From assembly GCA_030614715.1 (NCBI GenBank), contig JAUWTM010000003.1, positions 13,763 to 77,762 on the forward strand: a stretch of DNA of 64,000 bases, read 5' to 3'. A model generated the notes under the pieces. That model did not search any database. It was given only the letters and a program-made list of their open reading frames with translations, and was not told where the DNA came from. Positions 9,764 to 43,740 of the stretch are shown here, piece by piece. The translations under genes and the position numbers were made by a program. Position 1 is the stretch's first letter. The number at the start of each line of letters is the position of its first letter. This stretch comes from Planctomycetota bacterium (GTDB lineage Bacteria; JAJVIF01; JAPKYR01).

Positions 9764-9778
9764 GCATGGAGGGGGATA

Positions 9779-11218: not shown

Positions 11219-11234
11219 GCAAAGGTCGGAAGCT

Positions 11235-12617
11235 ATGGAGATCCCCGAACATATAAGTGACCTGATTACTGCGTTGGCGGCATCGGGTTTCATCGAATGT
11301 GCACATGAAAATCCCGAACGTGTTGTCAGGAGTTATATACTTGGGTTGCCTTCGAACCCACCTTCGGACGAGTTGTTCAAATCGGTATTCCCTGACCATT
11401 ATGAGCCCGGGACGTTTACTATTTCGGAGCGTAAGTTGAATCCCCCGTATATAACCGTTGATGACCGGCTATCGTACGAGGACTGGGTAATATCGGAAAC
11501 GAATTCTGACCTTGAGAAGCTTATCCCGTTACTTGAAGAACAATGCAAATGGTTAATAACAAATCCATCGATAATTTCCGAACTGCCTTCTAAAGTCCTT
11601 GCTGCGTTGAATTATTCATTCAAGCACGAGTGTACCCTTGCAGAGGAAATATATCAGCAGGAATATACGGATATCTTCAGGCGATTGAATCTGATTTACT
11701 TGACGGGATGGCCGAGAGTTCCATTCAACGAATACGACAAAATAAATGCTGAATTTCAGAAGATCGGAGTAAGCCTCGCAGATATGTGCAGCGATGTTAA
11801 CGAGAAGCTGTTAATGCGGATCAGTGCTGCCGCCGGTCTTATCGGCTTGAATCATAAAAGAAACGCATCCGCAACAGCAGTCCTGTATGATAAGGGTATT
11901 ATTCCAGTCAGCCTTACCGCGAATGACTACGTTAATACAGACATGGTCTTCTCAAACCTGGTCAGCAAAGCGGAGGAAGACTGGAAGATCGGGTATGAGG
12001 ACGAATTCTACGCACGGACATCGAAAGAAAACGGGACTGTCGGTCTCGTGTTTTTCCCGGATGATTACCTGGAAAGCATTATCGACTTGAAGTTAATCGA
12101 ACGCCTGATGGAGAACAACGACAAATTACACACAACGATTATTCCTCGTGCTTTAAGGTTCGGGAACGATGCTGGATACAGCGACATTACAGAATTTCTG
12201 AAACTGGACGTATTTTCAAAACTCGCATCGTATATGAAAGAAGGAAGGCTTGTCATTGAAATCATGGGACCGCTTTCGGGAACCGTGAACGGCAGGCGGC
12301 TTTCATCTCAAGCGGTTGAACATCTGAATTCTGCGGATGTCGTATACGTAAAAGGGGCCAGATCATACGAATGTCTTCAGGGGCTGAACACACACACTTT
12401 TTTTTCATTCGCTGTCTGCCGCAGTTTAAGCGAAGCCGTTACGGGAATCAACGCAGAAACAGGGGGACTTGTACTAATCTACCAGGAGCCTGGAGTACGG
12501 AGTTTTCAAGGATTCAGGAAACGACACCTGCGACAATGTGAGTCACCGTCCGGTAGAAAATATTGGCTGGCGGAAGTAACCGCATCGGATTCAACACTCG
12601 AACATCCCCTTACTTAA
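11235..12617 (+). CDS. DUF89/ARMT1-type metal-dependent phosphatase family protein
   Basis: FFPDDYLESIIDL (degenerate DxxxE block), RFGNDAGYSDI, ADVVYVKGARSYECLQG (KG-x-x-N/S-Y-E block), FAVCRSLSEAVTGINAETGGLVL (KC..v...lg block). These are colinear with the DUF89 fold. Confidence 0.6.
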   Translation: MEIPEHISDLITALAASGFIECAHENPERVVRSYILGLPSNPPSDELFKSVFPDHYEPGTFTISERKLNPPYITVDDRLSYEDWVISETNSDLEKLIPLLEEQCKWLITNPSIISELPSKVLAALNYSFKHECTLAEEIYQQEYTDIFRRLNLIYLTGWPRVPFNEYDKINAEFQKIGVSLADMCSDVNEKLLMRISAAAGLIGLNHKRNASATAVLYDKGIIPVSLTANDYVNTDMVFSNLVSKAEEDWKIGYEDEFYARTSKENGTVGLVFFPDDYLESIIDLKLIERLMENNDKLHTTIIPRALRFGNDAGYSDITEFLKLDVFSKLASYMKEGRLVIEIMGPLSGTVNGRRLSSQAVEHLNSADVVYVKGARSYECLQGLNTHTFFSFAVCRSLSEAVTGINAETGGLVLIYQEPGVRSFQGFRKRHLRQCESPSGRKYWLAEVTASDSTLEHPLT

Positions 12618-19744: not shown

Positions 19745-19914
19745 CCAGCTTCTCCTTACAGCGTGTAAAAAGGCATAAAAAAAATTTAGACAAACACCAG
19801 TATTTCCCGGAATCTGAGACGTGAGATCGAAGTACTCCCCGTGAAAAACCAATCATCTATTAATATTAGTCGAGTATCCGATCAACACTCAGGTCCGAAA
19901 AGTAACGCAGGCGC

Positions 19915-19944
19915 ATTTTACATCAGCACGAGCAACTTTGTCAA
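19915..19944 (-). promoter_or_regulatory. Candidate sigma70-type promoter for the bzdNOPQM-like operon
   Basis: On the minus strand: TTGACA (19944-19939), 18-nt spacer, TAAAAT (19920-19915). It lies about 170 nt upstream of the start at 19744. Confidence 0.45.
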
Positions 19945-20057
19945 ATAAGATTTAATAGTAGTTAAGGGATAAAGAAATGTTCGCAACGATGCATGAACAG
20001 AAGGTTTCCGGGGATTTTAAATAGTGTTTTTACGTCACATGCTTGATGCATGAATAA

Positions 20058-20498
20058 TCAGTCGGCCCTGATACACATCAAAGTCTGCTGCATGATTGCG
20101 CATAATTTCTCAAGCCCGTCCTCGACTGAAAATATGTCGATCCTCGAGATCGAGAGCGAACGTCCGTGCTTCACTACATTGCCACGGGCAATAATGGGGT
20201 CACCCTTCGCCTCACCGAGTAGATTGATCTTGAATTCGACTGCCAGCATGTTCGCGTCGTTCGGTTCGAGCGTCCAGGCTGCATATCCACCGGCGTTGTC
20301 ACCGATAGTTGTTAGTATCCCGCCGTGAACGGACCTGGACTGCTGGGTAAATTCCTCGCGCCAGGGCAGAGTGACCTCCGCGTAGCCGGGACGGAGATCG
20401 GTCAACTGCGCCCCGATCCATCGCATGGTTTTCTGACGGTTGAAGTTTTCTATCAGGAGCTCCGGGTACCCGGGGTCATAATATTCGTAATCAGGCAT
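20058..20498 (-). CDS. PaaI/hotdog-fold acyl-CoA thioesterase
   Basis: ..GYAEVTLPWREEFTQQSRSVHGGILTTIGDNAGGYA.. is typical of PaaI/4HBT-type thioesterases. Start at ATG 20498 (AAGGAC RBS). Confidence 0.8.
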   Translation of the reverse strand: MPDYEYYDPGYPELLIENFNRQKTMRWIGAQLTDLRPGYAEVTLPWREEFTQQSRSVHGGILTTIGDNAGGYAAWTLEPNDANMLAVEFKINLLGEAKGDPIIARGNVVKHGRSLSISRIDIFSVEDGLEKLCAIMQQTLMCIRAD

Positions 20499-20581
20499 GG
20501 GTTTGGTCCTTAGGGTCACAAATGTGAGGAATAATGGTAGCATAATGAATCGTTCTCAGGAAGCTGACGCAACGTGTGAAT

Positions 20582-20627
20582 TTGACATGTAAGCTCGATA
20601 ATCAATTGATTATACAAATTGACATGT
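20582..20627. promoter_or_regulatory. Operator-like element: perfect 16-bp palindrome flanked by two TTGACATGT direct repeats
   Basis: TTGACATGT at 20582-20590 and 20619-20627. ATAATCAATTGATTAT (20598-20613) is its own reverse complement. It lies 35-80 nt upstream of the SIR2 start. Confidence 0.5.
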
Positions 20628-20661
20628 GCTATTGTTCGAATAGACACATCTATTTATAGTT

Positions 20662-21696
20662 ATGCTAAGTGACATAGAAGAAATTGCTAAGCTGGCACAG
20701 AATTATGTTTCAAGGCAACCAGTAGTAATCCTTGGCAGTGGAGCATCTATACCTTATGGCTTACCTTCGATGGATGAACTTGAATTTGAAATTTCACAGT
20801 CTATTGAATTTGAGACCTATAGCGAGGAGTATCCGATCTGGGAAGAATTCAAAGATGTCTTAAAAGAAACGCAAGACTTGGAAAACGCCCTTAATGCTGT
20901 AACTTTAACACCCATTATGCTTGAGAAGGTTCTAGAAGTAACGTGGCGATTTATTACGCGTCGGGATTTCGTATTTCTCAGATCGTTAATAACAGGTTAT
21001 CGCGAATTTCAACTGCCAAATTTATTTAAATTTCTCACAAGAGTTGCTAATCCAAACCTGCTCGTTATTACGACTAATTATGATAGGCTAGCTGAATATG
21101 CTTCGGATCTTTCTGGTGCAGAAACAATAACTGGATTTACAGACGGTTTACTAAGGCGATTCGATCCAAGCCGTTTATATCAAGGGAGAATCACATCCGA
21201 TAAGGCTCGCATAAGCATATATAAAGTTCATGGCTCTTTGGATTGGTTTGAAGATCAGCATGGTGAACCCATTTCAATCCCACTTTCATTCGAACTACTT
21301 GATGCACTGAAGCCATTAATTGTGACTCCTGGAGTTACTAAATATCGAGAGACTCACAATGAACCTTTTAGGTCAATAATGTCTAAGGCAGATACCGCCC
21401 TCAGAGAAGCTTCATCTTATCTTTGTATTGGATACGGATTTAATGATGAGCATGTTCAACCAGTTCTTACTCAGCGAATCAATAGGGACAAAATTCCGAT
21501 TGTTTGCGTTTCTAAAACATTAAGTCCAAGTGGTCGAAGGCTACTACTTGATAATCCATGTGAAAATTTCTTAATTTTCGAGCAAGCCAAGAACGGAACA
21601 AAAATCTATCTGCCATCTGCACCAGACGGTGAAATCTATAAAGACTTACATCTTTGGGAACTTCATGAATTCCTTAAACTATTAGAAGATGATTAA
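20662..21696 (+). CDS. SIR2-like NAD+-binding/NADase domain protein (SIR2_2 family), defence effector
   Basis: PVVILGSGASIPYGLPSM (GxGxS Rossmann), VITTNYDRLAEYA (TNYD), YKVHGSLDW (HG), LCIGYGFNDEHV. These blocks are colinear with defence-type SIR2 proteins. Confidence 0.8.
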   Translation: MLSDIEEIAKLAQNYVSRQPVVILGSGASIPYGLPSMDELEFEISQSIEFETYSEEYPIWEEFKDVLKETQDLENALNAVTLTPIMLEKVLEVTWRFITRRDFVFLRSLITGYREFQLPNLFKFLTRVANPNLLVITTNYDRLAEYASDLSGAETITGFTDGLLRRFDPSRLYQGRITSDKARISIYKVHGSLDWFEDQHGEPISIPLSFELLDALKPLIVTPGVTKYRETHNEPFRSIMSKADTALREASSYLCIGYGFNDEHVQPVLTQRINRDKIPIVCVSKTLSPSGRRLLLDNPCENFLIFEQAKNGTKIYLPSAPDGEIYKDLHLWELHEFLKLLEDD

Positions 21697-21707
21697 GGAG
21701 CTTGACC

Positions 21708-23474
21708 ATGTCACTTTTCAATTATGAGGACAGCGAAGCAATCGGAGGAGTATTTAGTGTCGACACAGGCTCAGTGTTGGTTAGAGTTGAAGACGTTGAG
21801 CAATTAAGGAAATTACAGGTTAATCACCTTGTCGCTTTAAGAAGTTCAAGGACAGGTCAACATCTGATTGGCATCATCCACAAAATTATGAGAAAGGCAT
21901 TGATGAAACCCCTAGATGAAGAAACAGATGAAGCCACACCTGAAGACGGCACCTTTGAAGAAAATATTATTCGTGTGACACTAATAGGCACGCTAAAGGA
22001 TAAGGCGGGTGAAAAACCTAACGTCTTTCAGCGTACATTAGAATCTGTCCCTGAAATTGACGCAAGATGTTTTATTTTATCAGGTGAAAGACTGACTAAA
22101 TTTATGCAAGCAATATCGATCGGTGCTGGCACCAAACCAAATGCATTATCTTTAGGGAAATATACTATTGACGAGGATGCTAATGCTTGGCTAGATGGTA
22201 ATCGGTTTTTCCAGAGACATGCCGTCTTAGTAGGAGCTACAGGATCCGGCAAATCGTGTGCAACTGCACATATATTGGAGCAGGTTGAACCTTTACAAAA
22301 TTCAAATGCGATACTTTTTGATATCCACGGTGAATATAAGACAATCGAAGGTGATAACATACAGCATTTTCATGTTGCTGGACCAAGCGATCTGGATCAA
22401 GGCACTGGTCTCGCTGACAATGTAATTTTTCTACCATATTGGTTACTAACATACGAAGAAATGATCGCTTTCTTATTAGATCGAAGTGATTTGAATGCGC
22501 CTAATCAGGCAATGTTATTTGCGAGGTCTGTTACAAAAGCTAAAAAGGATTATCTTGAAAAAGAGGATAAAAATGAAATTTTAAAGAACTTTACAATTGA
22601 TAGTCCAGTCCCATATTCATTAGATTCAGTAATTGGATCCCTAAAGATACTTAACGAAGAAAAAGTCCCTGGTGCAACAGGCAAACCAATTAAAGGCGAC
22701 TTCCACGGTAAGCTATCCCGATTCCTTCAAAGGCTGGAGGCTAAAATTGGAGATCGAAGGTTAGGCTTCATGTTCGGTGGTGGCAAAGACGTAATGGATT
22801 ATGATTGGATGCTAACACTCTGTACAAAGTTGATTGGAGGATCAGGTCAACAGCCTTATGGTGGTGTCAAAATAATAGATTTCTCTGAAGTTCCTTCAGA
22901 TGTTCTTCCATTGATGACTGGCATGGTAGCTAGGTTGGTGTTTTCCATCCAGCAATGGACTGAAAAAGAAGAATTACATCCAATAGCTATTTTTTGTGAT
23001 GAAGCCCATCTATACATACCCGAACACCTTGCAGCCAATGCGGTCAATGAAGCTGGATTTCGGAGTTTTGAGCGTATAGCAAAAGAGGGAAGGAAATATG
23101 GAGTTGGATTGGTAGTAATCAGTCAGCGCCCCTCTGAAGTAAATCGAACCATACTTAGTCAATGTAATAACTTCATTGCCATGAGATTAACAAACGCAGA
23201 AGATCAATCTGTGATTCGTCGGCTTTTACCTGATAGTTTAGGAGGATTCTCTGAACTTTTACCCATCTTAGACACTGGAGAAGCAATAGTCGTTGGTGAT
23301 GCATCGCTATTACCATCAAGAATTCGTATTGATCTACCTAAAAAGAAACCAACCAGCGCAACAATAGACTTTTGGGATGAATGGTCAAAAAAAAGCACAT
23401 CAACTGGAATCGCCAATGCCGTTGAATCCCTGCGTCTACAGGCAAAAATCAAGAAAAATCTACCTGTCAGATAG
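21708..23474 (+). CDS. herA: HerA/FtsK-like (DUF87) ATPase, partner of SIR2
   Basis: Walker A VLVGATGSGKSC, Walker B IAIFCDEAHLYIP, VVISQRPSEV, N-terminal barrel-like IGGVFSVDTGSVLVRVED. ATG 21708 is preferred: AAGGAG at 21695-21700 gives a 7-nt spacer. Confidence 0.85.
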   Translation: MSLFNYEDSEAIGGVFSVDTGSVLVRVEDVEQLRKLQVNHLVALRSSRTGQHLIGIIHKIMRKALMKPLDEETDEATPEDGTFEENIIRVTLIGTLKDKAGEKPNVFQRTLESVPEIDARCFILSGERLTKFMQAISIGAGTKPNALSLGKYTIDEDANAWLDGNRFFQRHAVLVGATGSGKSCATAHILEQVEPLQNSNAILFDIHGEYKTIEGDNIQHFHVAGPSDLDQGTGLADNVIFLPYWLLTYEEMIAFLLDRSDLNAPNQAMLFARSVTKAKKDYLEKEDKNEILKNFTIDSPVPYSLDSVIGSLKILNEEKVPGATGKPIKGDFHGKLSRFLQRLEAKIGDRRLGFMFGGGKDVMDYDWMLTLCTKLIGGSGQQPYGGVKIIDFSEVPSDVLPLMTGMVARLVFSIQQWTEKEELHPIAIFCDEAHLYIPEHLAANAVNEAGFRSFERIAKEGRKYGVGLVVISQRPSEVNRTILSQCNNFIAMRLTNAEDQSVIRRLLPDSLGGFSELLPILDTGEAIVVGDASLLPSRIRIDLPKKKPTSATIDFWDEWSKKSTSTGIANAVESLRLQAKIKKNLPVR

Positions 23475-23486
23475 CTTAATTTTCAT

Positions 23487-25805
23487 TCACAGCGGATACC
23501 GGCGCGGGAACTCAGGGAATTTACGAGCCAGCATTGCTTTCAGGCCCACAGACGCGTCGGGGTGACGGAAAATCTCCTCGAGATGCTGGTTCAACTCATA
23601 TGCCGCCGACTCATCAAGGTCCACGCCTTTAAGATAATCGTCGAAGCCCTTGCTGATCAGCCAGTTCGACACCCAGACCGCGTTCGGTGAGTTCGCCGCT
23701 GCGCGGTTCGCGATCCTGATCACCTGCTCGCGCCATGGTGACGTGTGGAACGTGACAGCGTCGCGACGTCCGTGGGCATAAAGCGTCGGAATCAGGTCCG
23801 CCTTGAGGAAGAGGTGCTTCATGTAGTGGATCTCTTCTTTGTCATCGAGCGTTAACGCAGTCGGGATCTCCTCGATTTCAAGCGCGTCGATCTGGTCTCT
23901 TGTCAGGGCCTTACCGCCGTTCTCAGAGATTGCCCTGCACAGCCTGACCGCGACCTCGTCGCGGGTGTTCGACGGGACCACCAGGTCGGCAAGTCCGAAG
24001 TAACGCAGCAAACGTTGGGATGATGTCGCAGTACCACCCGCAAGAATGTAATAACGCGCCATCGCGAGTGCGAGATCGGCATCACCGGTTGTCCGGTGAA
24101 TGATCCGCGACATCATAAGCGTCCCGCGAAGTCCCGGGAAGATACCGAGACGGGTTTCGGGAAGCGCGTACGACGTGTGGTTCGTGGCAATCACGATCGT
24201 ATCGGGATCCCACGCGAAAGCCATCGCTGTCTCGACCCCGCCGCCGAACGCCTGACCGTCCACGATCGCTACCTTCGGCTTGCCCGACCCGGTCATCTTG
24301 TGGAACATGATGTCCTGCCATCGAGCGGTGCCCTCGCGGATCGCGTCGAACCTGCCCGCTTCCATGTTCTCGACAAATTTCGGCACGTTCGCCCCGGCGA
24401 TGAAAGTCTTTATCGGTGCCGTGTCGAAAACTATCGTGTCGACGTTGTCATCGGCGTTCGCCTTGGCAAACGCCTCCTCCAGCATGTCGAAAACGAAGTC
24501 GTCGAGCGCGTTTGCGGTTGTCGGTGAGTTGAGAGTGATCCATGCGATCCTGGATTCCTCGCACGTCTCGTACTCAATCGGATTCATCTTCAGTTCGAGG
24601 TCACTACCCGCGTCCGCGAGTGCCTTCAGGTTGGCCGGGATCGGGAAATGGTATCCATCCTTCTTCGCAAGCGAAGCACGGTCCTGCACCATCCGCCAGC
24701 CTTCCTTAATTCCATATTTATTGAAGAACGTAAACGGTCCCGCTCTCCAGAGGAACGCATTTTTCGCGAGAATTTCAAAATCCTCGGGTGTGATTACGCC
24801 TGCATCGACGATCTCAAACGCAGACATGAACGCGATCGCAAGAAACCGTTCTTTTAACTGGTTAACGACCGCTTCATCGCCTGTGCCCGGGCCCGGACCC
24901 TCGACCGGGAGCCATCGGACAGTCGACGGATCTTCCGCTTTCAACTGCTCCTCAACCAGCGCTCGGAAACCATCGGTCGGCTTGAAGAAGTCCTTATAAA
25001 CCTTGAAAAGCGGATCGTCCGGATCGGAATTGTCAGCAAATGATTCCATGGCGTAAAGGCCGATCGCGATCCCGGTCGCATCCATCAGGGCAAGGAATCC
25101 CATCGGCAGATTGAACGCAGCTCTCGCGCCGGCCTCGACATCACCCTTGTCGAAGCCCTCGTCGACCATCCTGCACGCTTCAAGCAACAGTGCGACGAAA
25201 AGAATGTCCGCGGCGCCACCCTTACGGCTGGAAGTGATCGGTGTCGAGACCTTACCGCCCATTTTCATGTAATACATGCCGGTCCGGATGGCATCTTTCG
25301 ATGCCGCATCGGTGCCTGCCACCTCACCGCCACGGTTCTTGTGCGGCAGGTAGAAGTAATGCATCCAGACGACCTTGTCCGATCGTTTGACCGCGTCGGA
25401 CAGGATGTTCGTGTTGAGTGACGAGGAATTTGTCGCGAGGACGACGTCCGGCGCACACAATTCATCGAGCTGCTGGAAGATTTTCGTTTTAATATCCAGC
25501 CGCTCAGTCGCCGATTCGATCGCGATTTTAAGTTTCTTCCCACCACATGCCGTTGGATAATCGGTCGTAGTGAGAATCCGTTCCTGAATCGCAATGATCT
25601 CATCATCGGTGAAGATGCGTCCACGTGCACCATCGAGTTCTTTCGCTATGGTCTCGCGCGCGGTGTCCAGGATCTCGTCAGCAATGTCGATCAATCCGAC
25701 AACGAACCCGTTCTGCGCGTACGCCTGCGCGATACTCGCGCCCATCGTGCCCGCACCGACAACAAGTAATTCAACATCGTCCCATGTGTATTTTTTGTCT
25801 GTCAT
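23487..25805 (-). CDS. Fused 3-hydroxyacyl-CoA dehydrogenase / enoyl-CoA hydratase (FadB/FadJ-like, dehydrogenase domain first)
   Basis: N-terminus LLVVGAGTMGASIAQAYAQNG (HADH Rossmann). Central/C-terminal crotonase block ..VAIVDGQAFGGGVETAMAFAWD... 772 aa. Confidence 0.85.
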   Translation of the reverse strand: MTDKKYTWDDVELLVVGAGTMGASIAQAYAQNGFVVGLIDIADEILDTARETIAKELDGARGRIFTDDEIIAIQERILTTTDYPTACGGKKLKIAIESATERLDIKTKIFQQLDELCAPDVVLATNSSSLNTNILSDAVKRSDKVVWMHYFYLPHKNRGGEVAGTDAASKDAIRTGMYYMKMGGKVSTPITSSRKGGAADILFVALLLEACRMVDEGFDKGDVEAGARAAFNLPMGFLALMDATGIAIGLYAMESFADNSDPDDPLFKVYKDFFKPTDGFRALVEEQLKAEDPSTVRWLPVEGPGPGTGDEAVVNQLKERFLAIAFMSAFEIVDAGVITPEDFEILAKNAFLWRAGPFTFFNKYGIKEGWRMVQDRASLAKKDGYHFPIPANLKALADAGSDLELKMNPIEYETCEESRIAWITLNSPTTANALDDFVFDMLEEAFAKANADDNVDTIVFDTAPIKTFIAGANVPKFVENMEAGRFDAIREGTARWQDIMFHKMTGSGKPKVAIVDGQAFGGGVETAMAFAWDPDTIVIATNHTSYALPETRLGIFPGLRGTLMMSRIIHRTTGDADLALAMARYYILAGGTATSSQRLLRYFGLADLVVPSNTRDEVAVRLCRAISENGGKALTRDQIDALEIEEIPTALTLDDKEEIHYMKHLFLKADLIPTLYAHGRRDAVTFHTSPWREQVIRIANRAAANSPNAVWVSNWLISKGFDDYLKGVDLDESAAYELNQHLEEIFRHPDASVGLKAMLARKFPEFPRRYPL

Positions 25806-25851
25806 CTATGTAATCCTCAACACGTGTTTTTCAAAATGAAGTCGCAGGTCT

Positions 25852-27096
25852 TTAAAGATAGCTCTTGATAATGAGCGCTCCACCCTGTCCGCCGCCGATA
25901 CAGGCCGACGCGAGTCCCATACCGCCCTGGTGAATGACAGCACCGCTGAGACGGCACCCGGTAGCACCCAGCGGATGCCCGATCGCGATCGCGCCTCCCC
26001 AACGGTTTACCTTGCTTCGGTCAAGTTCAAGAACCTTCTCGACCGCCATGTACTGCGCTCCGAAAGCCTCGTTAATTTCGAAATTGTCGATGTCATCGAA
26101 CGTGAGTCCAGCGCGATCGAGTGCCATATGAATCGCCGGCACCGGGCCGATTCCCATGTGTGCAGGGTCTACACCTGCTACCGCCCACGACACAAATTCC
26201 GCGATCGGTTTCAGTCCCAGCTCCTTTGCGTATGCTTCGGTGGTCAGGACCATCGCCGCGCCGCCGTCAACGATCCCGCTCGCGTTCGCGGCGGTCGTAA
26301 CGCCGTTCGGCTTGACCGGTTTCATTCGCTCAAGAATCTGCATCGTCGTGTCCGGACGTATCAGGTTATCGTGCTCGACGACCTTGACTCCCCTTCGAGT
26401 CTGAAGCTCCACCGGGGTAATTTCCTTCCCGAGGTTGCCGTTCTCACGTGCCAGAGTTGCTTTCTGCTGGCTTTCGAACGCAAACTGGTCGATTTCCTCG
26501 CGCGTGATGCCGTAGTAACTTGCGAGATTCTCGGCAGTATCCATCATGTCGCTGTTCGTGTAGGTGTCCTTAAGGCCGTCCTTGAAGAGGAAATGCGCTG
26601 TCGGTCCGGCCATGTACGGGAATCCGTATGCTGCGCCGTAGATCACGTATGGCGCCTGCGACGGGCTTTCATACCCGCCGGCGAGTACCATCTTTGAGTC
26701 CCCGGTGATAAGTTCCTTCGCCGCCAGCGTAAGTGCCTCGGCACCGGACCAGCAGATACGGTTGACCGTGAGTCCGCGACTTGTCCACGGCAGTCCTGAT
26801 TTCAGTCCAACATGCCGCGCGCCGTAATGAGAGTCCAGCGATGTATGCTGGGCGTTACCCATGATCACCTGGTCGATTAACTCGGTGCGGTCTTCGAGCC
26901 CGGCTTTCGCGATCGCTCCCTTCGCTGCGTAAACACCGAGATCGATCGGATTTATATCCTTGAGGTCGGTACCCACCACCGTAAATGGTGTCCGTGTGGC
27001 TGACAGGACGACTACCTTGACGCCAAGTTTCTGCATCAGTTCGACCGCTCCACCACCCACGGGAGGAGAGTCGCTGAAGATCGGATTTTTGTGCAT
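25852..27096 (-). CDS. Acetyl-CoA C-acyltransferase (thiolase)
   Basis: NRICWSGAEAL, NEAFGAQ, GHPLGATGCRL, CIGGGQGGA. 414 aa. Confidence 0.85.
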   Translation of the reverse strand: MHKNPIFSDSPPVGGGAVELMQKLGVKVVVLSATRTPFTVVGTDLKDINPIDLGVYAAKGAIAKAGLEDRTELIDQVIMGNAQHTSLDSHYGARHVGLKSGLPWTSRGLTVNRICWSGAEALTLAAKELITGDSKMVLAGGYESPSQAPYVIYGAAYGFPYMAGPTAHFLFKDGLKDTYTNSDMMDTAENLASYYGITREEIDQFAFESQQKATLARENGNLGKEITPVELQTRRGVKVVEHDNLIRPDTTMQILERMKPVKPNGVTTAANASGIVDGGAAMVLTTEAYAKELGLKPIAEFVSWAVAGVDPAHMGIGPVPAIHMALDRAGLTFDDIDNFEINEAFGAQYMAVEKVLELDRSKVNRWGGAIAIGHPLGATGCRLSGAVIHQGGMGLASACIGGGQGGALIIKSYL

Positions 27097-27337
27097 AGAA
27101 ATAACCTCGGTCGGTTTTCGGCCGTTAAAAACGAAAAAAAATGAAATGCCCGAGTAACGTAACAGATACCCCAGACCATGTCAAGAAGTGCGATGGGAGT
27201 GTAAATCAAAATCATATCGCGCCGTTGACACAGCATTGAAATTCGCACCTGTAGCGATCTTTCCAGCTTGGTGTGACGTTGAAATACATAATCCCTGACT
27301 GAAACGGCACAGGTAATTATTGGTCTTCCAGCAGAAA

Positions 27338-27367
27338 GGGCACCCGTGTATGGGTGCCCTTTTTTTT
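27338..27367. terminator. Strong GC hairpin + T8 (best read on + strand); may also serve as end of the minus-strand oxidoreductase operon
   Basis: GGGCACCC-GTGTAT-GGGTGCCC followed by TTTTTTTT (27360-27367). On the minus strand the same hairpin is followed only by TTTCT. Confidence 0.6.
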
Positions 27368-27402
27368 GCAGATTAAAAGTGCTGGTCCGATGTAACAGCG
27401 GA

Positions 27403-28299
27403 TCAGATGTGCGGGAGCACGTATTCAAACCGTGCAGCCTGCAGACGTGCCATCACACCGCAGCCAAGGATAACCTGACGTAACAGGAGCATACCGATCA
27501 AGCCGAGAATTCCGGCAAGTATATGCATGCCGATGGCTGTTCCTCCCATTCCATACAGGTTAATTAATTCCAGGACTAACGGTACGAACAGACCCATTAA
27601 GAATACACCGACCCAGAACATTCCTGAGAATTGCCCTGACATCAGCATTTCTGCCGCGGCGCGTCCTTCCGGCGTCCTGTGGGTACCCCAGATGTAGAGT
27701 GCCATCGCCAGAATCAGGAAGACCGCCAGACCAGTCGAATGTACAGCAAGGAACTTCATCTGCTCTACCGCGTCCGGGACAAATATCGACGACAGTAGAA
27801 GCGTCGCAAGTAGTCCTGAATAGAGTGCACTCGCCAGGAATACAATCGGCAGGAGCGGGTTTGCCCAGAAGGCGATCGGCCTGTTAGCGGCCAGAAGGAA
27901 CCCGGTGTAAAGCATCACACCAAATCCCATTACGATCCCGATGAATCCAAGGATGGGTAGCAATCCCCCTCCGGCATTGAACACCGTAAGGAGCCAGTGG
28001 ATACCCGCGAATATGACGAACAATAAGACAATAATCACACCGCGGGAAATCCATGAGGTCCCCGGACACTTCATTGCATGGATCGCATTCATGGGTCTAC
28101 CCAGACCCACCAGGAGAACAACGTAACCAATTGCCAGGATGATTACTCCGGAGATAATGCCAACCTTGGAGATACCAAGCCAAGCTTCACCGGCGTAACC
28201 AGCCAGGGCGCCTATTACATAGGTGGCTGCTCCCAGACCACCGAGAAACAGGTAAATTGCATGATCCCAGCCCCATTTAGTTTGAGCTTTCATTTTCAT
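27403..28299 (-). CDS. NrfD/PsrC-type polytopic membrane anchor subunit
   Basis: KWGWDHAIYLFLGGLGAATYVIG is the NrfD-family N-terminal signature. Multiple hydrophobic helices follow. Start at ATG 28299 (GAGGTGA RBS overlapping the upstream stop). Confidence 0.8.
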   Translation of the reverse strand: MKMKAQTKWGWDHAIYLFLGGLGAATYVIGALAGYAGEAWLGISKVGIISGVIILAIGYVVLLVGLGRPMNAIHAMKCPGTSWISRGVIIVLLFVIFAGIHWLLTVFNAGGGLLPILGFIGIVMGFGVMLYTGFLLAANRPIAFWANPLLPIVFLASALYSGLLATLLLSSIFVPDAVEQMKFLAVHSTGLAVFLILAMALYIWGTHRTPEGRAAAEMLMSGQFSGMFWVGVFLMGLFVPLVLELINLYGMGGTAIGMHILAGILGLIGMLLLRQVILGCGVMARLQAARFEYVLPHI

Positions 28300-28306
28300 T
28301 TGTATG

Positions 28307-28936
28307 TCACCTCGGTGGTAAGTAATAACATGATGGATCAGTTCCGAACTCCGGGTTAAGCTGGAAACCAGCATTCCGTCGAATCAGAATAGAAATTTCA
28401 CTCTCGGGATCATCGAGATCGCCGAATGTTCGAGCCTTGGCCGGGCAGGCCTCTACACATGCAGGATCCTTACCGTCCGCGATCCGATCTTTGCAGTAAT
28501 CACACTTCGTGGCCAATCCAAAGCCGTTCTTCAGTTCCCACTGCTCCAGACAATAAGCCTCGTAAGGGTCGAGTTCGCCCTCGGCATCGGGGAAGTAGGT
28601 TTCGAACGTTGAAACAGTCTGTCGGGCCCCATATGGACAAGCCATCATGCAGGTTTTGCATCCCATGCACAGATCGGGATCAACCGTGACGATGCCGTTC
28701 TCGTCCTGCTGCGTTGCTCCGGTCGGGCAAACGTCCATGCATGCCGGCTCAGCACATTGCTGGCAGACGAGAGGAAGCATTTGCCGTAATGCAGAAGGGT
28801 AAGTTCCGATCTCGGCAGACACACACTTAGCCCAGTCGACTCCCTGTGGCGTGTGGTTTGCCGCCTTGCAGGCTACGGAACAGGAATAACACCCGTAGCA
28901 TCTTTTTAAGTCAATGACAAAGCCGTGACGTGTCAT
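28307..28936 (-). CDS. 4x[4Fe-4S] ferredoxin-type subunit (DmsB/PsrB/NrfC family)
   Basis: CYGCYSCSVACK, CQQCAEPACMDVCP, CMGCKTCMMACP, CDYCKDRIADGKDPACVEACP. No RR leader. Confidence 0.85.
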   Translation of the reverse strand: MTRHGFVIDLKRCYGCYSCSVACKAANHTPQGVDWAKCVSAEIGTYPSALRQMLPLVCQQCAEPACMDVCPTGATQQDENGIVTVDPDLCMGCKTCMMACPYGARQTVSTFETYFPDAEGELDPYEAYCLEQWELKNGFGLATKCDYCKDRIADGKDPACVEACPAKARTFGDLDDPESEISILIRRNAGFQLNPEFGTDPSCYYLPPR

Positions 28937-31578
28937 CTTGCTTCACCCTCCTTCATCTTGTAGATTTTGACCTTTACACAGGCATCTGTGCCCTGGGTCA
29001 GTGGGTCTGTGTACTCAATACCCACCTGGATCAGGTCATCGAAGAATTGACCCTTTCCTTTCGCTATGGGGGTCCCCCTGGCCCAGTGGCCATGACATCC
29101 TGCGACCGCGAGATGCTCCGGATGCAAGCCCTGAACAAGTTTCACCGGCCCTTTAATCTTCTTGCCAACCGAGTTCTCAACCCATACCCAGTCGTTGTCC
29201 TTTAATCCCTTCTTCTTCCCGAAGTCCTCGTTGATCTGCATCAGGTAAACAAAGGGATCGTTGATCGAGATCTCGTCGAGCCACGGGTTGTTCTGGGATG
29301 ATGATTGAGTATGGAACGAGGGTCGCCAGCAGAAAGCCCAGAGTTCGTACTCAGGACGCTTCTCCGTGTGAGACGGGCACGGGAACCAGTTTACCAGACC
29401 CGTATAGAACCTGAGGTCCAGCAGGTTCTCACCACCGTACTCCGCGAGAAGCTTGCTGGCTTTCTGCCCACCATCGATGAAGAACTCAAAGTAGATAGGC
29501 ACCCTGACAGGTACATGCCACCGCCAGTACATCTCCTCGGGCTTTGTCGGCCACTTTTCCAAGCCTGTTTTCTTAAGTGCCTCAAGGCCCTTAGTATCAC
29601 CAAGCCTGTCCTTCAGTACCCGGTCGCAGACATCCGTCCAGGTGTAGTCCTCGCCCTCCTTAAGCCTGTACTTCTCTGACATCTCACCGCCATACCTGAC
29701 CGGTATGAGGTCGTTGATCACCTGGAAGTACTTGTCCTTGATCCCGAGCCTGTCGGCAAGGTCGAGCATTACGTCATTAAAGTCACGCCGCTCGAACATA
29801 GGCTCGACAAGGGGTTGGCGAATCTGCCATACCCATTCGTCCATACCTGTTGGATGGCAGAAAGTGGAGGGGAACGTCACGCAGGGTGTGTATCGCTCCA
29901 TGAAGCTGGCGTCGGGAAGGACAATGTCCGCAACCGCCTCCGTGAACTCGTTCTGGTAGATATTGAACGAGAATATGAAATTAAATTTCTTGAGGAAATT
30001 CTCCGTAATATCATGCGCGTTCGCCATCGTCATTACGGAATTGGAACCGAAGTTGATCATGATCTCCGGCTCATAGTCGAGTTTGAACTGTTCCCTGTAC
30101 TTATCCCAGTCGGGGGACATAATCGTAAACGCATTATAGATCGAGCTTGGGAACATATCCTGCAGGTCAAGCCTCGTAGGAGCATGAGGCTCCCTGAGCG
30201 GGTAGGGTTTGTGGTCGTATACCCAGCCCTTGACGATCATCAACCCGTCAGGACAGGCGTACGGAATCGTCTCGGGTTTACCGGTGTCCGGATGGCCGTG
30301 AGAAACAGGTGGTCCGTGTCCCATGGCACCTCCGGGAACATCGGCAGCCCCGACGACGTGGTTCATAAGGTCGATTGCGAGACAGTTCCAGCCGGAGTTG
30401 ACATGGCCCTGACTGCCCCTGAAGAAAATTGCAGCCGACGGCCTGAGCGGGAACTTTTTACCTTTAATGGTGATCGTGCTGCCGATCTGGGCATTCTCAG
30501 CGAACTCCTTCGCAACACGTCGGAGCGTCGATATAGGCACCGATGTAATCTGCTCGACCTTTTCAAGAGGATAATTCTCCTTCACGTGGTCCTTCAGGAT
30601 CTGGAAGCTGGGCTGGCACTGAACTCCATTCACGGTGTAGGAACCAAGAAGGGCGAGATCCGGACCCACGAACGGGTCCATCTCGTAGAAGTCGAACGGT
30701 TTAGCCCTGTTGTCGCCAAGATCCCAGACAAGGGGTTTGTTTGTCTCCGGATCCCGTACGTACTTCCCATCCTCTTTGATCAGGTAGGGAGCATTTGTCT
30801 TCCATCGCAGGTAGTCAGCGTCCCATGTGTTGAGCTCGTTCAGCATGACGTTAATCATACCGAGTACGGCTGCGGCATCTGTACCTACGCGGATGGGCAC
30901 CCATTCTTCAGCCTTAGATGCCTGTGTAGACAGGTAGGGATCGAAAACGACCGCTTTCATTCCCCTTACCCTGGCATCGGCAACCCACTGGGCACTCTGT
31001 AAGGCTGCATGGCCAGCACCATGACCCTTCGAGCAACCGAAGTAAAGGGTGTAATTGTTGTAGTTCCAGTCCGGAATGATGGACCATGCGGCATGTGTAA
31101 TGCCGTTCATGAAGTGCGCACCATTACCGCACCACAACCCGCCGCCTGACACCCAGTAGTTTTTAAAGCCGAAGGCACGCATGAAGGCTGGAACCGCAAA
31201 ACGGATCTCGCTGGTCTGAACAGTGGTTGCCTGGAAATAGCAACCCCTTCGATCTTTCATGTTCTTGAGCTTGTCCACGATCGTGGTCATAGCTTCTTCC
31301 CAGGAAATCCTCTCCCATTTGGGGTCCTCATGCACACCTTTTTTAGGATTGGTCCTCTTGACCGGGTAATTAAGACGATGCCGGTCATAGAGCGTATGCA
31401 GTTGGGCAGTACCTTTTGCACAGATTCTGCCACTGCCGGCCGGTGTTTCAGGATTACCTTCAAGGGCGACGATGACGCCATCGACCCTGTGAGCTTTGAT
31501 GCCACACTGTCCGTAGCATCCACCACAGGATGTAGGGATCCATACATCTTCCTTGACTTGAGTAGACTGTGCAGTCAT
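28933..31578 (-). CDS. Molybdopterin (bis-PGD) oxidoreductase catalytic subunit, DMSO-reductase superfamily, no Tat signal
   Basis: 881 aa. N-terminal FS0 motif SCGGCYGQCG..x..ICAKG begins at residue 18. The N-terminus MTAQSTQVKEDVWIP has no twin-arginine motif. Confidence 0.85.
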   Translation of the reverse strand: MTAQSTQVKEDVWIPTSCGGCYGQCGIKAHRVDGVIVALEGNPETPAGSGRICAKGTAQLHTLYDRHRLNYPVKRTNPKKGVHEDPKWERISWEEAMTTIVDKLKNMKDRRGCYFQATTVQTSEIRFAVPAFMRAFGFKNYWVSGGGLWCGNGAHFMNGITHAAWSIIPDWNYNNYTLYFGCSKGHGAGHAALQSAQWVADARVRGMKAVVFDPYLSTQASKAEEWVPIRVGTDAAAVLGMINVMLNELNTWDADYLRWKTNAPYLIKEDGKYVRDPETNKPLVWDLGDNRAKPFDFYEMDPFVGPDLALLGSYTVNGVQCQPSFQILKDHVKENYPLEKVEQITSVPISTLRRVAKEFAENAQIGSTITIKGKKFPLRPSAAIFFRGSQGHVNSGWNCLAIDLMNHVVGAADVPGGAMGHGPPVSHGHPDTGKPETIPYACPDGLMIVKGWVYDHKPYPLREPHAPTRLDLQDMFPSSIYNAFTIMSPDWDKYREQFKLDYEPEIMINFGSNSVMTMANAHDITENFLKKFNFIFSFNIYQNEFTEAVADIVLPDASFMERYTPCVTFPSTFCHPTGMDEWVWQIRQPLVEPMFERRDFNDVMLDLADRLGIKDKYFQVINDLIPVRYGGEMSEKYRLKEGEDYTWTDVCDRVLKDRLGDTKGLEALKKTGLEKWPTKPEEMYWRWHVPVRVPIYFEFFIDGGQKASKLLAEYGGENLLDLRFYTGLVNWFPCPSHTEKRPEYELWAFCWRPSFHTQSSSQNNPWLDEISINDPFVYLMQINEDFGKKKGLKDNDWVWVENSVGKKIKGPVKLVQGLHPEHLAVAGCHGHWARGTPIAKGKGQFFDDLIQVGIEYTDPLTQGTDACVKVKIYKMKEGEAR

Positions 31579-43182: not shown

Positions 43183-43383
43183 TCCTTTTGTGTTTTAGGA
43201 ATGAGTATAGTAATTGACTGATTGGTGCTTCAACCAGCAATCCGCTCTGGATCGCTGATCGTAAGACCGGTTCAGATCAATAACAGAAGAAATCCCCTTT
43301 TAATTACAGGTCCCATCCGACATGGGGGAGGACTATAATATATCTAAAGAAAAACAAAGTCAAGAAGTGCGGATATCGCACTT

Positions 43384-43716: not shown

Positions 43717-43740
43717 AAAAAACCGGGATTTAAGTCCCGG
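43717..43740 (-). terminator. Intrinsic terminator of the CoA-transferase gene
   Basis: Minus strand: CCGGGA-CTTAAA-TCCCGG followed by TTTTTT (A6 at 43717-43722 on the + strand). It starts about 50 nt after the stop at 43789. Confidence 0.7.

What the first reader, a model, noticed from the sequence alone, without database searches (positions are those of the whole stretch)
20499..23486. SIR2-HerA two-gene anti-phage island dropped into a catabolic locus
Seen: a 344-aa protein carries the defence-type SIR2 blocks VVILGSGASIPYGLPSM, ITTNYDRLAEY, KVHGSLDW and CIGYGFNDEHV. Five nt after its stop comes a TTG, and 11 nt after it the preferred ATG, of a ~590-aa ATPase. That ATPase has Walker A GATGSGKS, Walker B FCDEAHLY, ISQRPSE and an N-terminal barrel-like region. 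The pair sits in strongly AT-rich DNA (35% GC in my spot count at 21001-21060), on the opposite strand to both neighbours.
Known: SIR2-HerA pairs (also called Nezha) are a described defence system. The HerA hexamer scaffolds SIR2 NADase, and infection triggers NAD+ depletion.
Inference: this is a horizontally acquired abortive-infection module. No integrase or transposase is visible, so the acquisition mechanism is unclear.
Basis: partly seen in the sequence, partly recalled or inferred. Interest (0 to 1): 0.7.

Follow-up and report, generated by a model that had tools for sequence, protein, structure and literature searches.

The report
Foreign SIR2–HerA anti-phage gene pair
Two adjacent genes, recently acquired by an uncultured anaerobe and inserted into a metabolic gene cluster, encode an intact SIR2 NAD-degrading enzyme and its HerA ATPase partner; this is an ordinary new example of a known anti-virus system, notable only because its ATPase is closest to those that normally pair with a nuclease.

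Summary

- **Genes:** 20662-21696 encodes a 344-aa SIR2_2 protein. 21708-23474 encodes a 588-aa HerA/DUF87 ATPase.
- **Profiles:** both match PADLOC SIR2/HerA profiles over their full length (381 and 788 bits).
- **Catalytic residues:** Asn139, Asp141 and His190 of the SIR2, and Walker A/B of the HerA, are invariant across the clade.
- **Structure:** the SIR2 model (pLDDT 90) matches SIR2 subunits of solved SIR2–HerA complexes before any other SIR2.
- **Conservation:** the same SIR2→HerA pair recurs in MAGs of many phyla, on plasmids, in E. coli chromosomes and on seven viral contigs, often beside restriction or integrase genes.
- **Foreign origin:** GC3 is 28-31% against 67-69% in neighbouring genes, and 84 orthologous loci lack the pair. 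A second contig reproduces both junctions. I found no integrase, tRNA or flanking repeats.

One qualification: this is not the Nezha lineage. The HerA is closest in sequence and fold to HerAs of DUF4297(Cap4-nuclease)–HerA systems. The N-terminal regions of both proteins have no significant sequence relative among solved structures.

Verdict: a new member of a known kind, of modest interest. NADase activity and phage defence are inferred, not shown.

The parts
20550..20661 (+). AT-rich upstream non-coding region of the island. It probably holds the module's own promoter, and it contains a direct repeat AAT/ATTGACATGT at 20579-20590 and 20616-20627. There is no Shine-Dalgarno sequence before the SIR2 ATG.
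   Evidence: Sequence read. The repeat is family D20. Similarity to the PaaI leader of relatives L008/L009 fades about 50 nt upstream of the PaaI start, roughly window 20545-20550. The consensus promoter scan found no convincing + strand site here, so promoter function is inferred.
20662..21696 (+). SIR2-family protein, 344 aa: the predicted NAD+ glycohydrolase effector. Gly-rich NAD loop 24-29, catalytic Asn139/Asp141 (TTNYD) and His190 (KVHGS).
   Evidence: Pfam PF13289 at 1e-12. PADLOC SIR2 PDLC04087 at 381 bits covering 5-341 of 344. Catalytic residues align to solved SIR2–HerA SIR2s and are invariant in alignment A1. AF2 model has pLDDT 90.3, and its top 39 Foldseek PDB hits are all SIR2 subunits of SIR2–HerA complexes, TM 0.48-0.69 and mostly 0.6 or higher.
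21697..21707 (+). 11-nt intergenic spacer with a GGAG ribosome-binding site 7 nt before the HerA ATG, which implies an operon.
   Evidence: Sequence. Plasmid homologues have the same 9-13 nt spacing.
21708..23474 (+). HerA/FtsK-type ATPase, 588 aa from the ATG (590 from TTG 21702). Beta-rich N-terminal region 1-~140, Walker A 176-183 (Lys182), Walker B 429-436 (Asp431/Glu432), RecA-like core and C-terminal tail.
   Evidence: Pfam DUF87 at 2e-21 plus HerA_C. PADLOC HerA PDLC04105 at 788 bits, full length. PDB best hits are HerAs of DUF4297–HerA at 2e-77. Motifs are invariant in A3. AF2 core pLDDT is 80-94 and the N-terminus is low. Foldseek result.
20550..23486 (.). Extent of the compositionally foreign island, about 2.9 kb. 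The right edge is only 12 nt from the stop codon of the convergent 772-aa neighbour.
   Evidence: GC profile, GC3 contrast, sequence at the right junction, and absence of the pair from orthologous loci.

Best explanation
This is an intact two-gene SIR2–HerA anti-phage module. It was acquired horizontally, and probably recently, from a lower-GC donor, and it lies between two blocks of a CoA-dependent anaerobic catabolic locus in an uncultured bacterium.

By homology with solved SIR2–HerA complexes, the HerA ATPase should form a hexamer. Its N-terminal beta-barrel crown would dock a ring of SIR2 protomers through the SIR2 N-terminal helix. In uninfected cells the NADase is held inactive. Infection cues (phage proteins and/or DNA ends sensed through HerA) would release SIR2 to hydrolyse NAD+, using Asn139/Asp141/His190. 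That would stop growth of the infected cell (abortive infection).

Shown here:
- gene integrity and family membership by profile and fold;
- conservation of catalytic and ATPase residues;
- conserved SIR2→HerA adjacency across many taxa and mobile elements;
- foreign composition, and absence from orthologous loci.

Inferred:
- complex formation and stoichiometry;
- NADase activity, the trigger and the defence phenotype;
- expression in this host.

The pair belongs to a short-SIR2 lineage (about 340-360 aa). The HerA of this lineage is closer to HerAs partnered with the DUF4297/Cap4 nuclease than to any structurally solved SIR2-partnered HerA.
For: - Family membership: full-length PADLOC SIR2 and HerA matches (381 and 788 bits), and Pfam SIR2_2 and DUF87 above their gathering cutoffs.
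- SIR2 active site: catalytic residues align to SaSir2 N226/H287 and PsSIR2 N163/D165/H212. N139, D141 and H190 are invariant in 41 homologues.
- HerA ATPase site: Walker A Lys182 and Walker B Glu432 are invariant, and Asp431 nearly invariant, in 36 homologues.
- SIR2 fold: the model (pLDDT 90.3) matches SIR2 of E. coli, Paenibacillus and S. aureus SIR2–HerA complexes at ranks 1-39 (TM 0.48-0.69, mostly 0.6 or higher). KomC, DSR2, ThsA, SPARSA and sirtuins follow at TM about 0.40-0.49.
- Conserved adjacency: the pair is adjacent in Nitrospinota MAGs, four plasmids from four phyla, two E. coli chromosomal lineages and a Klebsiella plasmid, and seven viral contigs. Neighbours there include integrases, methyltransferases and Type IIG R-M.
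- Foreign origin: GC3 is 0.28/0.31 against 0.67-0.69. In 12 other hosts the module's GC tracks the local GC (differences of -0.06 to +0.05), against -0.145 here. The pair is absent from 4 + 80 orthologous loci.
- Assembly: the junctions are reproduced in a second contig.
- Mechanism template: taken from PMC11472057, PMC11514289 and PMC13434337.
Against: - No experiment exists for this protein pair or, as far as I could establish, for its exact subfamily.
- The scores fall far below the NCBIfam equivalog cutoffs for the characterised anti-phage SIR2 and HerA (42.9 against 500; 152 against 800).
- The SIR2 N-terminal 132 residues and the HerA N-terminal 145 residues contain the elements that form the SIR2–HerA interface in solved complexes. 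Neither region has a significant sequence match in the PDB.
- The HerA N-terminus is modelled at low confidence, so the docking mode is unverified.
- No convincing promoter, terminator or SIR2 ribosome-binding site was detected, so expression in this host is unproven.
- SIR2–HerA subtypes differ in activities (helicase/nuclease versus nickase, ATPase or none) and in stoichiometry (12-mer versus 14-mer SIR2) (PMC11514289, PMC11472057, PMC13434337). Details cannot simply be transferred between subtypes.
Confidence: 0.85

Rival explanations
1. It is the same module, but its primary antiviral action is DNA-directed. HerA acts as a DNA translocase or nickase whose activation on phage DNA ends gates or supplements the NADase. 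This would resemble the type III Sir2-HerA cascade or the DUF4297–HerA nuclease complex more than simple assembly-activated NAD+ depletion.
For: - The HerA is closest in sequence (264-221 bits against 151-95 bits) and in fold (ranks 1-27) to HerAs of DUF4297–HerA dsDNA-cleaving complexes (PMC11291478).
- PADLOC PDLC02188, the HerA model that best matches HerAs next to DUF4297, scores 294 bits against 161 for the canonical SIR2–HerA HerA model.
- Type III E. coli Sir2-HerA uses a HerA nickase and an ATP checkpoint (PMC13434337).
Against: - No nuclease domain is detectable in either protein.
- The type III nickase residue D218 could not be mapped: the window HerA and the E. coli relatives L092 and L093 have Ile, Asn and Ser at position 218.
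- The SIR2 catalytic triad is invariant, so NADase is clearly under selection.
- This rival is a refinement of the best explanation, not an exclusive alternative.
Confidence: 0.25
2. It is an intact-looking but functionally silent passenger. The cassette arrived recently and is not expressed, or not functional, in this host.
For: - Composition is strongly un-ameliorated.
- No recognisable sigma-70 promoter or Shine-Dalgarno sequence lies before SIR2, and there is no terminator.
- Only 12 nt separate the HerA stop from the convergent neighbour's stop.
Against: - Both ORFs are full length against their profiles, with every catalytic residue intact, despite AT-rich DNA in which random stop codons are frequent.
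- The promoter scan covers only one promoter type, and the host is unknown.
- The island brings about 110 nt of its own upstream DNA containing two TTGACA boxes.
Confidence: 0.08
3. It has a non-defence role, such as a DNA-repair HerA with a regulatory sirtuin, or a plasmid/ICE maintenance (addiction) module.
For: - Archaeal HerA–NurA acts in DNA end resection, and the archaeal HerA matches at 1e-25 to 1e-30.
- Homologues are common on plasmids near replication genes, for example pADAP.
Against: - The SIR2 fold is closest to defence SIR2 subunits, not to deacetylase sirtuins.
- There is no NurA or Mre11/Rad50 neighbour.
- Homologues sit beside R-M, integrase and other defence genes.
- Related E. 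coli Sir2-HerA lineages were shown to be antiviral (PMC13434337).
Confidence: 0.04
4. It is an assembly or binning artefact: a low-GC fragment from another organism joined into the contig.
For: The source is a metagenome-assembled genome, and the GC drop is abrupt.
Against: Host genes flank the island on both sides of one contig. A second record (40-kb contig of GCA_048633415.1) is 99.98% identical across both junctions.
Confidence: 0.01

Closest known systems
SIR2–HerA defence systems with solved structures: E. coli Nezha (8SU9/8SUB/8J4U), Paenibacillus sp. 453MF (8W9L/8WIV/8WLD), S. aureus (8YHO/8YHX)
   Same: - Two-gene operon with SIR2 upstream of HerA.
- SIR2_2 domain with the same Asn/Asp/His catalytic residues.
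- HerA with DUF87 and Walker A/B.
- The SIR2 fold matches these SIR2 subunits first (TM 0.48-0.69, mostly 0.6 or higher).
   Different: - Very low sequence identity: SIR2 14-17% in structure-based alignments, HerA 17-22%.
- The SIR2 is shorter, at 344 aa against 381-428 aa.
- The N-terminal parts of both proteins have no significant sequence similarity to these structures.
- These HerAs rank below the DUF4297-partnered HerAs.
DUF4297(Cap4 nuclease)–HerA defence system (8XAU-8XAY, 8ZIQ-8ZIT, 9C1M-9C1O)
   Same: - The HerA ATPase core is the closest solved relative of the window's HerA: 264-221 bits by single sequence, 317-287 bits by profile, 26-30% identity, Foldseek ranks 1-27.
- Similar protein length, 571-617 aa.
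   Different: - The partner there is a Cap4-like dsDNA nuclease, not SIR2.
- Phmmer alignments with 9c1m and 8ziq begin only at window residue ~143-148, so the N-terminal barrel is not aligned. Barrel-region identity to plasmid DUF4297-partnered HerAs is 18-20%.
- The output is therefore predicted to be NAD+ hydrolysis rather than DNA cleavage.
Short-SIR2 + HerA pairs on plasmids and in E. coli chromosomes (Serratia entomophila pADAP WP_010895769/WP_010895767; P. aeruginosa pF045_1; E. coli EC416 WP_074387873/WP_064173247; E. coli 503025 WP_164546354/WP_001297331)
   Same: - Same architecture and sizes: SIR2 333-358 aa, HerA 575-597 aa.
- Same best PADLOC HerA model, PDLC04105.
- HerA is collinear over the full length, including the N-terminus, at 45-59% identity.
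   Different: - SIR2 identity to the E. coli versions is only 28-29%.
- These records are annotated only as 'SIR2 family protein' and 'ATP-binding protein'.
- I could not determine whether any of them corresponds to the experimentally validated E. coli types I-III (PMC13434337), because no sequences were available.
Other defence SIR2 effectors (Thoeris ThsA, DSR1/DSR2, SPARSA/short pAgo-SIR2, KomC)
   Same: SIR2 NADase fold and the abortive-infection logic of NAD+ depletion.
   Different: - Lower structural similarity (TM about 0.40-0.49).
- The window has no SLOG, pAgo/APAZ or KomB partner.
- The partner here is a HerA ATPase.

Membership tests
SIR2–HerA anti-phage system (broad sense, as in PADLOC/DefenseFinder) | A protein with a SIR2_2-type (PF13289) SIR2 domain | tested here: met
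   PF13289 at 48.6 bits against a cutoff of 24.5. PADLOC SIR2 PDLC04087 at 381 bits covering residues 5-341. The top Foldseek hits are SIR2 of SIR2–HerA complexes.
SIR2–HerA anti-phage system (broad sense, as in PADLOC/DefenseFinder) | Conserved NADase catalytic residues (Asn and His; Asp in PsSIR2) | tested here: met
   N139 and H190 align with SaSir2 N226/H287; N139, D141 and H190 align with PsSIR2 N163/D165/H212. They are invariant in 41 clade members.
SIR2–HerA anti-phage system (broad sense, as in PADLOC/DefenseFinder) | A HerA/FtsK-superfamily ATPase (DUF87 central domain) with intact Walker A and B | tested here: met
   PF01935 at 77.6 bits against 23.2, and HerA_C at 25.2 against 22. 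PADLOC HerA PDLC04105 at 788 bits, full length. GATGSGKS and FCDEAHLY are present, with K182 and E432 invariant and D431 nearly invariant.
SIR2–HerA anti-phage system (broad sense, as in PADLOC/DefenseFinder) | sir2 and herA adjacent, on the same strand, with the linkage conserved in other genomes | tested here: met
   11-nt gap with an RBS. The same order and spacing occur in L002/L003, L088-L091, L092, L093, L096 and seven viral contigs.
SIR2–HerA anti-phage system (broad sense, as in PADLOC/DefenseFinder) | HerA N-terminal beta-barrel that docks the SIR2 ring via the SIR2 alpha1 helix | tested here: inconclusive
   The SIR2 model has an N-terminal helix at 2-16 with the invariant Q13. HerA residues 1-140 are predicted as beta-strands but at pLDDT 30-60, and they have no sequence match in the PDB. 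No complex prediction tool was available.
SIR2–HerA anti-phage system (broad sense, as in PADLOC/DefenseFinder) | HerA-dependent NADase activity and phage protection | not testable with these tools
   Requires biochemistry and plaque assays.
NCBIfam equivalogs SIR2_antiphage (NF042942) and HerA_antiphage (NF042943) | Score at or above the curated equivalog cutoff | tested here: not met
   42.9 bits against a cutoff of 500, and 152 bits against 800. The best HerA model is HerA_antiphage_2 (NF042944) at 303 bits against 850. The pair is therefore outside these narrowly defined characterised subfamilies.
Nezha (E. coli Sir2-HerA cluster 1, PDB 8J4U/8SU9) | Close sequence relationship to the Nezha SIR2 and HerA | tested here: not met
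   SIR2 scores 24.6 bits (E 1e-4) over residues 134-272 only. HerA scores 109 bits, ranking fifth among PDB HerAs. PMC13434337 treats lineages this divergent as separate types.
E. coli Sir2-HerA types I-III (PMC13434337) | Sequence clustering with a type representative; for type III, the HerA nickase Asp218 | tested here: inconclusive
   No type sequences or accessions are held. The window HerA and the two E. coli relatives found here (HerA 45-46% identical) have no Asp at position 218, which argues weakly against type III.
DUF4297–HerA system | A DUF4297/Cap4-nuclease partner adjacent to HerA | tested here: not met
   The partner is SIR2. Genuine DUF4297 partners (PDLC02187, 120-124 bits) were seen next to more distant HerAs, L094/L095.
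DUF4297–HerA system | HerA of the DUF4297-associated clade | tested here: inconclusive
   These are the closest solved HerAs. However, the window HerA scores 788 bits on PDLC04105 against 294 on PDLC02188. It looks like a neighbouring clade rather than a member; no tree was built.

The most novel reading that the evidence does not exclude
The window's pair may represent an uncharacterised SIR2–HerA lineage built on the 'nuclease-type' HerA chassis.

- The ATPase core is closest to DUF4297-partnered HerAs, while the N-terminal docking region has diverged.
- One member of the same HerA clade (L149) is preceded by a non-SIR2 protein and a PD-(D/E)XK nuclease instead of SIR2.

If so, effectors have been exchanged on one HerA scaffold. 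This lineage may then assemble or be triggered like DUF4297–HerA (a split-spiral to planar hexamer switch, with DNA engagement) rather than like Nezha, using a SIR2–HerA interface not yet seen in any structure.
Probability: 0.35. Interest if true: 0.45.

Novelty: new member of a known kind. Interest (0 to 1): 0.25.

Why it matters
- **As a defence system it is routine.** SIR2–HerA is a described abortive-infection system, and this subfamily is already captured by PADLOC profiles.
- **Ecology.** The system is rarely documented in uncultured anaerobes that carry BcrAD/HGD-type CoA-dependent pathways. Here it arrived as a bare 2.9-kb cassette with no recombinase, tRNA or repeats, at a synteny breakpoint inside a metabolic cluster. 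This shows that defence cassettes are not confined to classical defence islands.
- **Mechanism.** The pair illustrates modularity of HerA-scaffolded immunity. Its ATPase is closest to those partnered with a nuclease, and the interface regions have no solved relative. That makes this clade a reasonable target for asking how HerA scaffolds switch effectors. Enterobacterial and plasmid homologues would be more tractable for such work than this MAG copy.

Tried and rejected
1. **Empty-site search.** The 772-aa flank gene found four orthologous genome loci (76-81% identity), but only the thiolase–FadB pair is syntenic. The HGD flank gene found 80 metagenome loci (64-83%). None has SIR2 or HerA, and only L008 keeps PaaI next to HGD, with an unrelated upstream gene. 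There is therefore no clean empty site, and the exact insertion boundaries remain approximate.
2. **Mobility signatures.** There are no tRNAs. No flanking direct or inverted repeats exceed what chance gives. No integrase or transposase domains occur in the neighbouring genes scanned within about 10 kb.
3. **Expression signals.** Promoter and terminator scans gave counts at the shuffle expectation, with no convincing + strand promoter upstream of SIR2.
4. **RNA families.** The Rfam scan of 19800-24000 gave only a chance-level hit.
5. **Placement in E. coli types I-III.** The paper's sequences and supplements are not held. A DNA search of E. coli genomes with the Serratia copy gave only short core matches, although these led to two related E. 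coli lineages. The D218 position check was negative.
6. **Host naming.** Cluster look-ups carry no names. Related contigs are labelled only 'bacterium' or 'Planctomycetota bacterium'.
7. **HerA monomer AF2 model.** The N-terminal 170 residues and residues 510-556 are low confidence, so the barrel and the interface could not be assessed.
8. **Is low GC intrinsic to the family?** Rejected. In 12 other hosts the module's GC (0.27-0.57) tracks the local GC.
9. **Is the 9.1-12.6 kb low-GC block a second defence system?** It has no PADLOC hits.

Full report
**Observation**

The region holds two co-directional ORFs on the + strand: 20662..21696 (344 aa) and 21702/21708..23474 (590 aa from TTG, 588 aa from ATG).
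- SIR2: VVILGSGASIPYGLPSM at 21-37, ITTNYDRLAEY at 136-146, KVHGSLDW at 188-195, CIGYGFNDEHV at 255-265.
- HerA (588-aa numbering): GATGSGKS at 176-183, FCDEAHLY at 429-436, ISQRPSE at 471-477.

The SIR2 stop (TAA, 21694-21696) is followed by the TTG after 5 nt and the ATG after 11 nt. GGAG lies 7 nt before the ATG. The PADLOC HerA profile alignment starts at that Met, so the ATG is the likely start.

GC is 0.37-0.41 in the 500-nt windows centred within the two genes, against 0.52-0.59 in most flanking windows. GC3 is 0.28/0.31 in the pair against 0.67-0.69 in four neighbouring genes.

Both neighbours are on the minus strand: a 4HBT/PaaI-type thioesterase and a 772-aa 3-hydroxyacyl-CoA dehydrogenase/enoyl-CoA hydratase fusion.

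**What the proteins are**

*Protein 1.* It passes Pfam SIR2_2 (48.6 bits, cutoff 24.5) and matches PADLOC SIR2 model PDLC04087 from end to end (381 bits). Against solved structures it aligns to the SIR2 subunits of the S. aureus, Paenibacillus and E. coli SIR2–HerA complexes.

The papers on those complexes define the catalytic residues as SaSir2 N226/H287 (PMC11514289) and PsSIR2 N163/D165/H212 (PMC11472057). In the alignments these correspond to N139, D141 and H190 of the window protein. All three, plus the Gly-rich NAD loop, are invariant in an alignment of 41 diverse clade members.

An AlphaFold2 model built on that alignment is confident (pLDDT 90.3, pTM 0.90).
- Its 39 best Foldseek matches in the PDB are all SIR2 subunits of SIR2–HerA entries (TM 0.48-0.69, mostly 0.6 or higher, alignments of roughly 330-440 columns).
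- KomC, DSR2, ThsA, SPARSA and eukaryotic sirtuins follow at TM about 0.40-0.49.

*Protein 2.* It passes Pfam DUF87 and HerA_C, and matches PADLOC HerA model PDLC04105 over its full length (788 bits). The Walker A lysine and Walker B glutamate are invariant, and the Walker B aspartate nearly invariant, in 36 homologues whose mean column identity is 78%.

The closest solved HerAs are not those partnered with SIR2.

| PDB HerA | System | phmmer bits | Profile bits |
|---|---|---|---|
| 9C1M | DUF4297–HerA | 264 | 317 |
| 8ZIQ | DUF4297–HerA | 238 | 287 |
| 8XAU | DUF4297–HerA | 221 | 289 |
| 8WIV | Paenibacillus SIR2–HerA | 151 | 205 |
| 8J4U | E. coli Nezha | 109 | 123 |
| 8YHO | S. aureus Sir2–HerA | 95 | 118 |

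The literature and PDB entry titles identify 9C1M, 8XAU and 8ZIQ as HerA of the DUF4297(Cap4-like nuclease)–HerA system. Foldseek on a moderate HerA model (pLDDT 67.8, core 80-94) gives the same order: ranks 1-27 are DUF4297-partnered HerAs.

PADLOC agrees with this picture.
- HerAs that sit next to genuine DUF4297 proteins (PDLC02187) on Pseudoalteromonas and Agrobacterium plasmids hit PDLC02188 best, which identifies that model as the DUF4297-system HerA.
- The window HerA scores 294 bits on PDLC02188, against 161 bits on PDLC02185, a more distant HerA model that I take, from its numbering next to the SIR2 model PDLC02186 and not from a test, to be the original SIR2–HerA HerA.

The similarity to nuclease-partnered HerAs is confined to the ATPase body.
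- Phmmer alignments with 9C1M and 8ZIQ begin only at window residue ~143-148.
- The first 145 residues alone find nothing in the PDB even at E ≤ 10, and the first 132 residues of the SIR2 find only chance-level hits (E > 1).
- Identity to plasmid DUF4297-partnered HerAs is 38-39% in the core but 18-20% in the N-terminal region.

In solved SIR2–HerA complexes, the HerA N-terminal barrel and the SIR2 alpha1 helix form the interface (PMC11514289, PMC11472057). The parts that decide partner choice are therefore exactly the parts without a solved relative.

**Is the pair a conserved unit?**

Yes. The SIR2 has more than 2,300 relatives, and the top 120 are full-length at 42-52% identity. Hits come from MAGs labelled Nitrospinota, Zixibacteria, Deltaproteobacteria, Planctomycetota, Gammaproteobacteria, Syntrophales and others.

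Direct inspection shows SIR2 immediately upstream of HerA in the following places:
- two Nitrospinota MAG contigs;
- plasmids of Serratia entomophila (pADAP), Pseudomonas aeruginosa, Aliarcobacter faecis and a planctomycete, with gaps of 9-13 nt;
- a Klebsiella plasmid;
- two E. coli chromosomal lineages, with HerA 45-46% and SIR2 28-29% identical to the window proteins and collinear over the full length;
- seven IMG/VR viral or proviral contigs.

Neighbours in those places include integrases, DNA methyltransferases, a Type IIG R-M enzyme, an IetA-like ATPase and a GIY-YIG nuclease. These are defence-island and mobile-element contexts.

**Acquisition**

The local genes form a CoA-dependent anaerobic catabolic locus: BcrAD/BadFG ATPases, HGD-D subunits, a ferredoxin/flavin oxidoreductase, a thioesterase, the dehydrogenase/hydratase fusion and a thiolase. 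Molybdopterin oxidoreductase and ATP-citrate-lyase-like genes lie further out.

Orthologous loci were recovered from both flanks, 4 genome loci and 80 metagenome loci. None contains SIR2 or HerA, and the pair sits exactly where synteny breaks. Similarity to the PaaI leader of the closest relatives fades about 50 nt upstream of the PaaI start (roughly window 20545-20550), so the foreign DNA starts near 20550. It ends within 12 nt of the neighbour's stop codon.

In 12 other hosts the module's GC (0.27-0.57) follows the local GC, differing by -0.06 to +0.05. The -0.145 offset here therefore marks a recent, un-ameliorated transfer from a lower-GC donor, not a property of the family.

No tRNA, integrase, transposase or meaningful terminal repeat is present. 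A second contig record is 99.98% identical across both junctions, which excludes a chimera.

**Mechanism (inferred)**

By analogy with the solved systems, a HerA hexamer docks two stacked rings of SIR2, 12 protomers in E. coli and S. aureus and 14 in Paenibacillus. Free SIR2 is auto-inhibited, and assembly or infection cues open the NAD+ pocket. In E. coli type III, phage SSB (T7 Gp2.5) and Gp5.9, DNA nicks and ATP consumption gate the NADase (PMC11472057, PMC11514289, PMC13434337).

For the window pair, the following are shown:
- intact catalytic residues and an intact ATPase site;
- operon structure;
- the family-level fold.

The following are inferred:
- complex formation and stoichiometry;
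- the trigger;
- NAD+ depletion;
- expression in this host.

The HerA resembles the nuclease-partnered clade, which switches from a split spiral to a planar hexamer on assembly and engages dsDNA (PMC11291478). A DNA-gated variant of the mechanism is therefore a live alternative.

**Comparison and novelty**

The pair meets all the sequence-testable defining features of SIR2–HerA in the broad sense. It is not Nezha, and it falls far below the NCBIfam equivalog cutoffs for the characterised subfamilies.

A 2026 classification splits E. coli Sir2-HerA into Nezha and types I-III, at 13-22% mutual identity (PMC13434337). I could not place this clade among them for lack of sequences. A simple check for the type III nickase Asp218 was negative in the window HerA and in both E. 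coli relatives.

The subfamily is already represented by PADLOC models, and NCBI annotates homologues as 'SIR2 family protein' and 'ATP-binding protein'. This is therefore a new member of a known kind.

**Verdict**

Interest is modest at 0.25. The only feature beyond routine is the nuclease-type HerA chassis with an uncharted interface, together with hints of effector exchange in the same HerA clade. In L149, a HerA of this clade follows a 325-aa non-SIR2 protein and a PD-(D/E)XK nuclease.

Noticed in passing
window 9170-12617 (+ strand): A second low-GC block (GC 0.42-0.45 against about 0.53) holds three co-directional ORFs: 197 aa and 479 aa with no Pfam or PADLOC hit, and 460 aa with an ARMT1-like/DUF89 domain (PF01937, 1e-9). 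It abuts the other end of the BcrAD/HGD cluster. The two of its ORFs used as queries (479 aa and 460 aa) have no counterpart in the 84 orthologous loci, so it looks like another lineage-specific insertion of unknown function.
   Followed up: partly
L149 3087-6668 (IMGVR_UViG_3300027852_000095): A HerA of the same clade (555 aa, 41% identical over the full length, PDLC04105 at 653 bits) is preceded not by SIR2 but by a 325-aa protein with no Pfam or PADLOC hit (hhalign against the SIR2 clade profile gives probability 0.05%) and by a PD-(D/E)XK nuclease. This may be a different effector set on the same HerA chassis.
   Followed up: partly
window 20579-20590 and 20616-20627: A direct repeat AAT/ATTGACATGT occurs twice, 37 nt apart, in the island's own upstream region. 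Each copy contains a TTGACA box. This could be tandem -35 elements or a regulator site. No Shine-Dalgarno sequence precedes the SIR2 ATG.
   Followed up: no
window 23487-28374 compared with L017, L020, L021: In relatives at about 72% identity, the molybdopterin oxidoreductase/Fer4/NrfD genes (window 27403-31578) lie directly next to the HGD genes. Relative to them, the window has thiolase–FadB–(SIR2–HerA)–PaaI inserted. The gap between these two operons is a variable region even without the defence pair.
   Followed up: partly
window 43001-44000 and 58001-60000: There are two further low-GC kilobase bins (0.43 and 0.44-0.46). The first lies between the 377-aa ORF ending at 43182 and the 3' end of a CoA-transferase III gene (43789-44997, minus strand). 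The second covers a TatC gene (58980-59819) and its upstream region. These were not examined further.
   Followed up: no
L096 (Klebsiella pneumoniae plasmid pKP18-231-2) and L098 (IMG/VR provirus): Related SIR2–HerA pairs are embedded in larger defence contexts. In the Klebsiella plasmid the pair sits between DUF499 and DUF1156 proteins. In L098 it sits between a Type IIG R-M enzyme and an IetA-like ATPase.
   Followed up: no
alignment A1 (SIR2 clade profile), residues 18-147: The N-terminal half of the clade profile weakly matches human FAM118B (E 1e-4) and the KomC SIR2 NADase (E 6e-4) in the PDB. This hints at a shared N-terminal Rossmann segment among SIR2-like proteins from very different lineages.
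   Followed up: no
L008-L087 (80 metagenome loci; more than 557 relatives found): The HGD-HGD-BcrAD-BcrAD-ferredoxin/flavin oxidoreductase gene order next to the island is strongly conserved across many sediment and groundwater metagenomes at 64-83% identity. It appears to be a widespread, apparently uncharacterised ATP-dependent CoA-ester reductase/dehydratase cluster.
   Followed up: no
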